Below, piece by piece: positions 356 through 1,831 of a stretch of 64,000 bases of DNA (position 1 is the stretch's first letter; each line of letters starts with the position of its first letter). This stretch comes from the human T2T-CHM13v2.0 reference genome, Homo sapiens: NCBI RefSeq assembly GCF_009914755.1, contig NC_060944.1. One strand, 5' to 3'. The notes beneath the pieces were generated by a model, which was not told the origin of the DNA, ran no database searches, and worked only from the letters and a program-made list of their open reading frames with translations. The translations under genes and the position numbers were made by a program.

Positions 356-1060
356 TTTTTTTTTTTTTTTTTTTTTTTTGAGATCCACCATACCTAAAAT
401 CCCTGTATCAGTCAGTCAAGCTTCCATCATGTAAGACCTGTTTCACTGAAAGGGTTCACTAACAAGAGTGGCAGGAAGGGATTATTTACAAAACTATGGT
501 CGGAATTAAGGGAACCAACTAGGGATGGTGAAGCACCCAGCGTCCAGCAGAAGTGGGAAGCCATTACCACCTGTAGGGCTGGAGAAAAGAGCTGCTACTA
601 AAATGCCAGAGAGTTGTAGCCAAGGTGGGGATGCTGATTAATAGAGGCTGTGGACCCTGCCAAAACCATGGCCACATGGTAAGGGACAGATGAAGAATAC
701 ATACCCCAACTTCTCTCTCCTTCATCATCTGATCGCCTTCCAATGCTTCCCATTGGCCACACCTAATGGGAACAAGACAGCACAGGCAATGCAGTCTGTC
801 GCCCAGGCTGGAGTGCAGAGGCGCGATCTCGGCTCACTGCAAGCTCCGCCTCCCGGGTTCACACCATTCTCCTGCCTCAGCCTCCCGAGTAGCTGGGACT
901 ACAGGTGCCCACCACCATGCCCAGCTAATTTTTTGTAATTTTAGTAGAGACGGGGTTTCACCGTGTTAGCCAGGATGGTCTCGGCCTCCTGACCTCGTGA
1001 TCCGCCAGCCTCAGCCTCCCAAAGTGCTGGGATTACAGACGTGAGCCACTGCGCCCGGCC
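356..1060 (-). mobile_element. AluY, interrupted by a templated insertion at about 384-794
   Basis: Poly-T 356-379 plus GAGA; body resumes at 795 (TCTGTCGCCCAGGCTGG...GCGCCCGGCC). AluY-type diagnostics GCAAGCTCCGCC, CCGTGTTAGCCAGGATGG, GACCTCGTGATCC. TSD CAACACAGCTTTTT (from 347) / CAACATGGCTTTTT (from 1061). Confidence 0.93.
378..795 (-). repeat. Left arm of 418-bp inverted repeat (inverted copy of 1414-1831)
   Basis: Block-by-block reverse-complement comparison with 1414-1831 found no mismatch or indel; end coordinates both sum to 2209. Confidence 0.97.
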
Positions 1061-1326
1061 CAACATGGCTTTTTTCTTCTTTCTACCACTCTTTCCCTGT
1101 CTCTGTCTTTCATTTAAACCTCACCAACAGAGAGAATACCATTGAGTCAGGAGGTGACCACCCATTAGGGACCCTCCACTGGTTAGAGTGCTCATTTTAG
1201 GCTTCCTCAGAGCTAGCTCAGCCCATGGATGGTTGCATTTGATTCAGGATCCCTGGAACCATCTGCAAAGGCAAGGCCAATAGGGTCATATGACATTAAA
1301 CACAGCTATGTTGCTCAGTAAGGGAC

Positions 1327-1805
1327 TGTCCTTGGTAAGCTCCACCTGCCCCTTCAGATCCATTCTCCACTCTTCTCTGCCCTGCTATGTACCCTGAAGG
1401 CTGAGCTCTATAAACTGCATTGCCTGTGCTGTCTTGTTCCCATTAGGTGTGGCCAATGGGAAGCATTGGAAGGCGATCAGATGATGAAGGAGAGAGAAGT
1501 TGGGGTATGTATTCTTCATCTGTCCCTTACCATGTGGCCATGGTTTTGGCAGGGTCCACAGCCTCTATTAATCAGCATCCCCACCTTGGCTACAACTCTC
1601 TGGCATTTTAGTAGCAGCTCTTTTCTCCAGCCCTACAGGTGGTAATGGCTTCCCACTTCTGCTGGACGCTGGGTGCTTCACCATCCCTAGTTGGTTCCCT
1701 TAATTCCGACCATAGTTTTGTAAATAATCCCTTCCTGCCACTCTTGTTAGTGAACCCTTTCAGTGAAACAGGTCTTACATGATGGAAGCTTGACTGACTG
1801 ATACA
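1327..1805 (+). mobile_element. Solo ERVL LTR, LTR33-like
   Basis: TG...CA termini (TGTCC...TGATACA); near-TSD GGGAC (1322-1326) / GGGAT (1806-1810); resembles recalled LTR33 consensus (CTCCACCTGCCCCTTCAGATCC, TTTGTAAATA). Confidence 0.75.
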
Positions 1806-1831
1806 GGGATTTTAGGTATGGTGGATCTCAA
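1414..1831 (+). repeat. Right arm (donor) of 418-bp inverted repeat
   Basis: Reverse complement of 378-795; embedded in an intact LTR and its flank, so it is the original copy. Confidence 0.97.

What the first reader, a model, noticed from the sequence alone, without database searches (positions are those of the whole stretch)
378..1831. Apparently perfect 418-bp inverted duplication templated into an AluY
Seen: 378-795 is the reverse complement of 1414-1831 with no mismatch or indel found, including retained CpGs; the spacer is 618 bp. The copy sits between the AluY poly-T/GAGA and the rest of its body, replacing about 11 nt of consensus (CGGAGTCTCGC). The entry junction has 6-bp microhomology (TTGAGA = reverse complement of TCTCAA at 1826-1831). 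The return junction has 1 bp (T), or 3 bp (AGT) if the Alu had already lost 6 nt. The copy includes 26 bp beyond the LTR end and lacks the first 87 bp of the LTR, so it is not a second retroviral insertion. Inference: a two-switch replication or repair event (FoSTeS/MMBIR or polymerase-theta templated insertion), much younger than the Alu and possibly polymorphic.
Basis: partly seen in the sequence, partly recalled or inferred. Interest (0 to 1): 0.85.

Follow-up and report, generated by a model that had tools for sequence, protein, structure and literature searches.

The report
Young inverted copy inserted into Alu
A 418-base stretch of an old repeat was copied backwards into the tail end of a nearby Alu element by an error of DNA repair or replication; this is a clean but ordinary example of a common kind of human structural change.

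Summary
Bases 378-795 are the exact reverse complement of 1414-1831 (418 nt, 0 mismatches, 618-nt spacer). In the whole assembly these two copies are the only close matches. All other relatives are 71-85% identical over short stretches.

1414-1831 is the source: family homology runs unbroken through 1414. 378-795 is the derived copy. It sits where 29 related Alus carry a 16-nt block between the poly-T and CTGTCGCCC. Of that block, 11 nt (CGGAGTCTCGC) are missing.

One junction has 6 bp of microhomology (TTGAGA/TCTCAA) and the other has 1 bp (T). The insert has no target-site duplication.

The Alu has 13 substitutions and has lost 8 of 23 CpGs, while the arms show no difference. An insert as old as the Alu has P about 5e-10, unless gene conversion homogenised the arms.

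The best reading is a microhomology-primed templated insertion (template switch, MMBIR or synthesis-dependent end joining). Short inverted duplications with 1-15 bp microhomology are already a catalogued class of human polymorphism (PMC12350158).

This is a new member of a known kind. Whether it is polymorphic, and whether apes carry it, could not be tested here.

The parts
347..355 (.). Left target-site duplication of the Alu (CAACACAGC).
   Evidence: It matches 1061-1069 except at two adjacent bases (CA versus TG), the pattern expected if an ancestral CpG decayed separately in each copy (inference).
356..379 (-). Alu A-tail, read as 24 T on the + strand.
   Evidence: The length is ordinary: the T-runs of 29 related Alus range from 6 to 29, median 18, and 7 of 29 have 24 or more.
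378..383 (.). Junction 1: TTGAGA, a 6-bp microhomology shared by the Alu end (poly-T plus GAGA) and the reverse complement of 1826-1831.
378..795 (+). Derived arm: the inserted inverted copy. Bases 384-794 are unambiguously new.
   Evidence: 100% reverse complement of 1414-1831. It interrupts the Alu where 29 related Alus have a 16-nt block.
795..795 (.). Junction 2: a single shared T. The 11 nt CGGAGTCTCGC of the Alu are missing here.
   Evidence: 13 of 29 related Alus have exactly GAGACGGAGTCTCGCT before CTGTCGCCC, and the rest have near variants.
796..1060 (-). Alu body, the recipient element, lying on the minus strand.
   Evidence: 92-95% identical to the best 39 other Alus scored in the genome. 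It has 13 substitutions against the majority of 29 copies, 8 of them at CpG, and keeps 15 of 23 CpGs.
1061..1069 (.). Right target-site duplication of the Alu (CAACATGGC), followed by TTTTTT.
1332..1760 (+). It is the parent of the source arm.
   Evidence: Genome copies are 62-85% identical. Homology in 5 loci (L010-L014) crosses position 1414 unbroken.
1414..1831 (+). Source arm, the template of the copy.
   Evidence: It is continuous with family homology on its left and with unique flank on its right.
1826..1831 (+). TCTCAA, the partner of the 6-bp microhomology.

Best explanation
This is a templated insertion in inverted orientation, also called a short dispersed inverted duplication with a small deletion at the insertion site. 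A break or a collapsed or stalled fork arose at the border between the Alu's 24-nt poly(dA:dT) tail and its body. A 3' end finishing in ...TTGAGA paired with the 6-nt complement TCTCAA about 1.45 kb away. A polymerase copied 411-418 nt of that strand, from 1825 back to 1414. The extended end was then released and rejoined to the other side of the Alu with only 1 nt of homology, and 11 nt of Alu were lost. The same product can be drawn as snap-back synthesis from the other end of the break: the resected minus-strand tail folds back, primes at 1414 with 1 nt, copies to 1831, and anneals across the break through the 6-nt microhomology. Shown here: the structure, the direction of copying (1414-1831 is the parent), the junction sequences, the missing 11 nt, and the lack of any difference between the arms. 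Inferred: the initiating lesion, the polymerase, which of the two drawings applies, and the age. The event came long after the Alu insertion: at most about 0.14 of the Alu's age at 95%, if there has been no gene conversion. No function is implied. No gene is annotated in the window, and the insert is most likely neutral.
For: The arms are perfect 418-nt reverse complements with sharp ends. They are the only two close copies in the 3.1-Gb assembly; the next best matches are 71-85% identical over at most 155 nt. The parent is 1414-1831, because family homology in L010-L014 crosses 1414. The recipient is an Alu whose 29 relatives carry poly-T + GAGACGGAGTCTCGCT + CTGTCGCCC, 13 of 29 exactly. The insert replaces 11 nt of that block, and the 6-bp and 1-bp overlaps can be read directly. 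There is no duplication of the target around the insert. On age, the Alu body has 5 non-CpG and 8 CpG substitutions and keeps 15 of 23 CpGs. About 21 arm-to-arm differences would be expected at equal age and none is seen, P about 5e-10. In print, the event fits switch-point order 1-4-3-2 of the four-point template-switch model, which makes up 31% of high-confidence human-chimpanzee events (PMC5453318, passages). Snap-back SD-MMEJ gives an inverted repeat spanning the junction (PMC2943611, passages). [quoted passage not shown] In 1,019 humans, 277 inverted duplications with a median length of 284 bp mostly had 1-15 bp microhomology, which the authors read as replicative in origin (PMC12350158, passages).
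Against: No empty allele (an uninterrupted Alu, 400 bp shorter) was seen, because no other human or ape assembly could be reached. The polarity 'Alu first, insert later' therefore rests on the anatomy and on the divergence argument. Identity of the arms could be kept by gene conversion, so the young age is conditional. The copied tract (about 412 nt) and the distance to the template (about 1 kb) are far larger than in the short template-switch and SD-MMEJ studies read here, where tracts are tens of nt and repeats lie within about 20 bp. Each drawing of the mechanism has one weak step with only 1 nt of homology. The role of the poly(dA:dT) tract as the starting lesion rests on my recall of published work on fork collapse at such tracts; I could not retrieve that paper.
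Confidence: 0.8

Rival explanations
1. The inverted duplication is old, close to the age of the Alu or shared by many primates, and the arms have been kept identical by arm-to-arm gene conversion, as in sex-chromosome palindromes. This changes the dating, not necessarily how the copy first arose.
For: [quoted passage not shown] The arms here are close together (618 nt apart) and perfectly identical, so they would be good substrates.
Against: The documented cases are large sex-chromosome palindromes (abstracts; arm sizes of kilobases or more are from my recall), not 418-nt autosomal arms. Identity here runs to the very last base at both junctions, whereas long-term conversion should leave the arm edges free to diverge (inference). 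All three CpGs are intact in both arms, while the neighbouring Alu lost 8 of 23.
Confidence: 0.12
2. This is an L1-mediated event. The L1 endonuclease nicked the + strand at the T-run/GA border of the Alu tail, and reverse transcriptase extended that 3' end on a local transcript or on local single-stranded DNA. The result is a 5'-truncated antisense copy with a short target-site deletion in place of a duplication.
For: The copy abuts a 24-T run on the strand that would be the first-strand cDNA. It ends with a microhomology and a small target deletion, features that I recall for some L1-mediated insertions.
Against: The template lies 1 kb away, which is not expected for retrocopies that land genome-wide (inference). 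None of 12 poly(A)-signal hexamers tested occurs in the arm; the only hit in 1301-1860 is TATAAA at 1409, about 420 nt upstream of 1831. The source has only AA at 1830-1831 to pair with a T-primer. The 24-T run needs no added tail, since 7 of 29 related Alus have 24 T or more. The insert has no target-site duplication.
Confidence: 0.04
3. The inverted copy is an assembly artefact and does not exist in the source DNA.
For: There is no direct evidence. Read data cannot be inspected here, so this reading cannot be excluded.
Against: The whole structure (1.45 kb) is far shorter than the long reads used for a telomere-to-telomere assembly (recall). The junctions show biologically typical microhomology and a small deletion inside a recognisable Alu, which a mis-join would not be expected to produce.
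Confidence: 0.03
4. 378-795 is a second, independent insertion of the same repeat family.
For: The sequence belongs to a dispersed repeat family.
Against: It is 100% identical to its neighbour, against at most 85% to any other copy scored. It starts at least 82 nt inside the element. It continues at least 71 nt past the last detectable family homology into the neighbour's own flank. It has no target-site duplication.
Confidence: 0.01

Closest known systems
Polymorphic short inverted duplications in human long-read structural-variant catalogues (PMC12350158; passages read)
   Same: A nearby sequence is inserted in inverted orientation. The size class is similar (277 events, median 284 bp). Junctions carry 1-15 bp microhomology rather than long homology, and a replicative origin is proposed.
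   Different: This copy sits in the reference assembly itself. Its allele frequency is unknown. It was not found in the one supplementary spreadsheet readable here, which holds only subsets of the calls and was cut when stored.
Four-point template-switch mutations, type 1-4-3-2 (PMC5453318; passages read)
   Same: The nascent strand leaves at point 1, copies the 2->3 fragment in reverse complement from nearby sequence, and returns at point 4 just downstream of point 1. This creates a new inverted repeat with no pre-existing repeat.
   Different: That study modelled short-range switches within one fork. Its filters asked for a copied fragment of at least 10 bp and excluded repeat-masked fragments. 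Here about 412 nt were copied from about 1 kb away, and the event lies in repeats.
Snap-back synthesis-dependent microhomology-mediated end joining (SD-MMEJ; PMC2943611; passages read)
   Same: A resected 3' end folds back on a primer repeat, is extended, unwinds, and anneals across the break through a microhomology. The product is an inverted repeat that contains the insertion and its flanks. Here the primer repeat would be 1 nt at 1414/795 and the microhomology 6 nt at 1826-1831/378-383.
   Different: That model was described for I-SceI breaks in Drosophila, with repeats within about 20 bp and insertions of a few nt. Here the tract is about 100 times longer, and the polymerase is unknown.
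MMBIR/FoSTeS, and local 2-jumps or 'bridges' of templated insertions in cancer genomes (PMC7025897; passages read; the MMBIR paper was seen only in its reference list)
   Same: There are two junctions and a copied segment linked by inverted joins. A small loss occurs at the host site, and the template is local.
   Different: Those events are somatic; I did not read their size distribution. This one is a 0.4-kb event in a reference assembly, which I take to be germline.
L1 twin priming or target-primed reverse transcription products
   Same: An inverted segment lies next to a poly-T/poly-A run.
   Different: There is no target-site duplication and no L1 or processed RNA. The template is the adjacent genomic DNA.

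Membership tests
Templated inverted insertion (template switch, four-point type 1-4-3-2) | The inserted fragment is the reverse complement of nearby sequence. | tested here: met
   418 of 418 nt complementary, 618 nt apart.
Templated inverted insertion (template switch, four-point type 1-4-3-2) | Switch points lie in the order 1-4-3-2, with the return point just downstream of the departure point. | tested here: met
   Departure is at 378-383. The return is 11 nt further along the Alu, judged against 29 related Alus. The template is 1831->1414.
Templated inverted insertion (template switch, four-point type 1-4-3-2) | Short microhomology at the junctions, no long homology, and no target-site duplication. 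| tested here: met
   6 bp (TTGAGA) and 1 bp (T). The flanks beyond the arms are unrelated.
Templated inverted insertion (template switch, four-point type 1-4-3-2) | An ancestral allele without the insert exists in an outgroup or in other haplotypes. | not testable with these tools
   Only this assembly is held ('It has no relatives here').
Independent insertion of the repeat family (solo LTR) | A complete element with its own termini and target-site duplication, and family-level divergence from other copies. | tested here: not met
   The copy is truncated by at least 82 nt and carries the neighbour's flank. It is 100% identical to the neighbour against at most 85% elsewhere. It has no target-site duplication.
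L1-mediated retrocopy | Target-site duplication, a poly(A) tail derived from a polyadenylated RNA, and a poly(A) signal upstream of the 3' end. | tested here: not met
   There is no target-site duplication. None of 12 signal hexamers lies within the arm; the only hit is TATAAA at 1409. The T-run can be explained as the Alu's own tail.
Palindrome maintained by gene conversion | Orthologous inverted repeat in other species, with arms identical within each species but diverged between species. | not testable with these tools
   No primate assemblies are available here.
   The body, tail and 9-nt duplication are present. The subfamily was not tested, because no repeat library is available. By recall it looks like the Y lineage.

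The most novel reading that the evidence does not exclude
The event was started by the retrotransposition machinery rather than by ordinary replication stress. An L1-endonuclease nick at the T-run/GA border of the Alu tail gave a T-rich 3' end, which was extended on nearby genomic DNA or on a locally tethered transcript. That would make this a natural example of ORF2p-type priming producing a local inverted duplication. A second unexcluded reading is that a 418-nt autosomal mini-palindrome has been kept perfect for many millions of years by gene conversion.
Probability: 0.05. Interest if true: 0.55.

Novelty: new member of a known kind. Interest (0 to 1): 0.25.

Why it matters
It gives a base-exact example, inside a reference-grade assembly, of a microhomology-primed inverted templated insertion. 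The copied tract (about 412 nt) is much longer than in the experimental and short-range studies read here. Both junctions can be read against an internal standard: the Alu's known 3' end. If some haplotypes prove to lack the insert, it would be a convenient natural marker for dating and genotyping this mutation class. It also places two perfect 418-nt inverted arms 618 nt apart, a structure that can mislead short-read mapping. Beyond that it is ordinary: no gene or annotated element is touched, and the class is already catalogued in human populations.

Tried and rejected
A second call failed for want of a required field.

2. I looked for the event in a population catalogue. The one readable supplementary spreadsheet of PMC12350158 had no entry beginning 108503, 108504, 107507-type prefixes as searched (108503, 108504, 108507, 108508) and none beginning chr20-1080 to chr20-1085. 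The single 'chr20-1081' hit is position 108,158. That file holds only subsets and was cut when stored, and the paper's PDFs could not be read. This says nothing about whether the insert is polymorphic.

3. I tried to fix the repeat's 3' end. A genome search with 1690-1870 found only the two local copies, so the element end at 1805 stays unverified.

4. The paper I recall on fork collapse at poly(dA:dT) tracts is not held, and a word search did not find it. That link therefore rests on recall only.

5. Three literature searches failed on term syntax and were reworded.

Full report
**The observation**

The repeat finder gives arms 378-795 and 1414-1831, 418 nt, 100% complementary, with 618 nt between them. 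A direct string test confirms an exact reverse complement. The match ends sharply at both ends, and the 30 nt outside each end are unrelated. No other inverted repeat of 60 nt or more in the 64-kb window is perfect. The other 15 pairs are 70-91% complementary, and those checked are Alu-Alu pairs.

**Which copy is the parent**

A search of the window's own 3.1-Gb assembly with the arm found these two places at 100%. Otherwise it found only short matches of 71-85% identity, of at most 155 nt (17 further matches; similar). The sequence therefore belongs to an old dispersed repeat family, and the two arms are each other's only close relatives.

Sensitive pairwise comparison with 11 family loci places detectable family homology at 1340-1760. 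In five loci (L010-L014) it runs unbroken through position 1414. A further search puts the earliest family homology at 1332. So 1414-1831 is part of a continuous old element and is the parent. The copy at 378-795 begins at least 82 nt inside that element and continues past the last detectable family homology into the neighbour's own flank.

A search with 1690-1870 found only the two local copies.

**The recipient**

Bases 796-1060 are an Alu body on the minus strand. Its 39 best other matches, out of 40 scored from 3,878 candidates, are 92-95% identical. I took the 29 best of these as loci. In all 29, a poly-T is followed by a 16-nt block and then CTGTCGCCC. The block is exactly GAGACGGAGTCTCGCT in 13 of 29 and a near variant in the rest.

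The window has 24 T (356-379), then GAGA, then the insert, then CTGTCGCCC. TTGAGA (378-383) belongs equally to the Alu end and to the reverse complement of TCTCAA at 1826-1831. The T at 795 belongs equally to the copy and to the Alu. The 11 nt CGGAGTCTCGC are missing. The net gain is 400 nt.

The Alu plus insert is flanked by a 9-nt target-site duplication, 347-355 and 1061-1069, which differs only by CA versus TG. The insert itself has no duplication around it.

**Age**

Against the majority of the 29 related copies, the Alu body has 13 substitutions: 8 at CpG and 5 elsewhere. A fourteenth listed difference is an alignment-edge effect of two flank bases that I included. The Alu keeps 15 of 23 CpGs. 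Because the 29 copies were chosen for similarity to this Alu, the count is, if anything, low.

With the Alu as an internal clock, two 418-nt arms as old as the Alu should differ at about 19 non-CpG and 2.6 CpG sites. They differ at none, P about 5e-10. The 95% upper bound on the insert's age is 0.14 of the Alu's age.

This holds only without arm-to-arm gene conversion. Conversion is known to keep large sex-chromosome palindromes above 99% identical (abstracts). I give that rival 0.12. It would change the date but not the way the copy arose.

**Mechanism**

The anatomy is that of a templated insertion with two template changes:
- a local template;
- inverted orientation;
- a 6-bp and a 1-bp microhomology;
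- a small deletion at the host site;
- no target-site duplication.

[quoted passage not shown] That type creates a new inverted repeat and makes up 31% of high-confidence human-chimpanzee events (PMC5453318).

Two drawings give the same product. In the first, the + strand 3' end ...TTGAGA primes on TCTCAA, copies 1825 back to 1414, and is rejoined with 1 nt of homology. In the second, the resected minus-strand tail of the other break end snaps back, primes at 1414 with 1 nt, copies to 1831, and anneals across the break through the 6-nt microhomology. The second drawing is the layout of snap-back SD-MMEJ (PMC2943611). Sequence alone cannot choose between them, nor between a broken fork and a two-ended break.

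The junction lies next to a 24-nt poly(dA:dT) run. I recall that such tracts are reported as sites of fork collapse, but I could not retrieve that paper.

**The L1-mediated alternative**

I considered this because the copy abuts the poly-T on the strand that would be first-strand cDNA. Four points speak against it:
- The template is only 1 kb away.
- There is no target-site duplication.
- None of 12 poly(A)-signal hexamers occurs within the arm.
- The T-run is no longer than in 7 of 29 related Alus.

**What is already known**

The class is well described. In long-read data from 1,019 people, inverted duplications were the most common non-mobile-element inversion class: 277 events with a median length of 284 bp. 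Only 8.8% had breakpoint homology, and most had 1-15 bp microhomology, which the authors read as replicative in origin (PMC12350158, passages). [quoted passage not shown] Interspersed inverted duplications with deletion are also listed among common complex variants (bioRxiv 10.1101/200170, passages).

**What stays open**

I could not test three things:
- whether an uninterrupted allele exists in other humans or in apes;
- whether CHM13 reads support the structure;
- what the allele frequency is.

No other human or primate assembly is reachable with these tools. The only readable supplement of the population study did not list the site, but it holds only subsets of the calls.

**Verdict**

It is a new member of a known kind, of modest interest.

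Noticed in passing
window 347-355 and 1061-1069: The two copies of the Alu's target-site duplication differ only at two adjacent bases (CA versus TG). This looks like independent decay of one ancestral CpG in each copy, a small internal sign that the Alu insertion is old.
   Followed up: partly
window 984-985: The Alu body has two adjacent non-CpG changes (AT to GC) relative to the majority of 29 related copies. This could be a single dinucleotide event or a source-gene variant rather than two separate mutations.
   Followed up: no
window 1690-1870: The 3' part of the old repeat, from about 1760 on, has no detectable relatives in the assembly apart from the inverted copy.
   Followed up: partly
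L002 955-975 (about 170-150 nt before the start of the window): A pure run of about 20 A lies just upstream of the window. It may be the tail of another retroposed element.
   Followed up: no
window 20274-20577, 29002-29275, 38286-38588, 50813-51049, 52241-52415: Five other Alu copies are 77-84% identical to this Alu body. They account for several of the imperfect inverted repeats listed in the window.
   Followed up: partly
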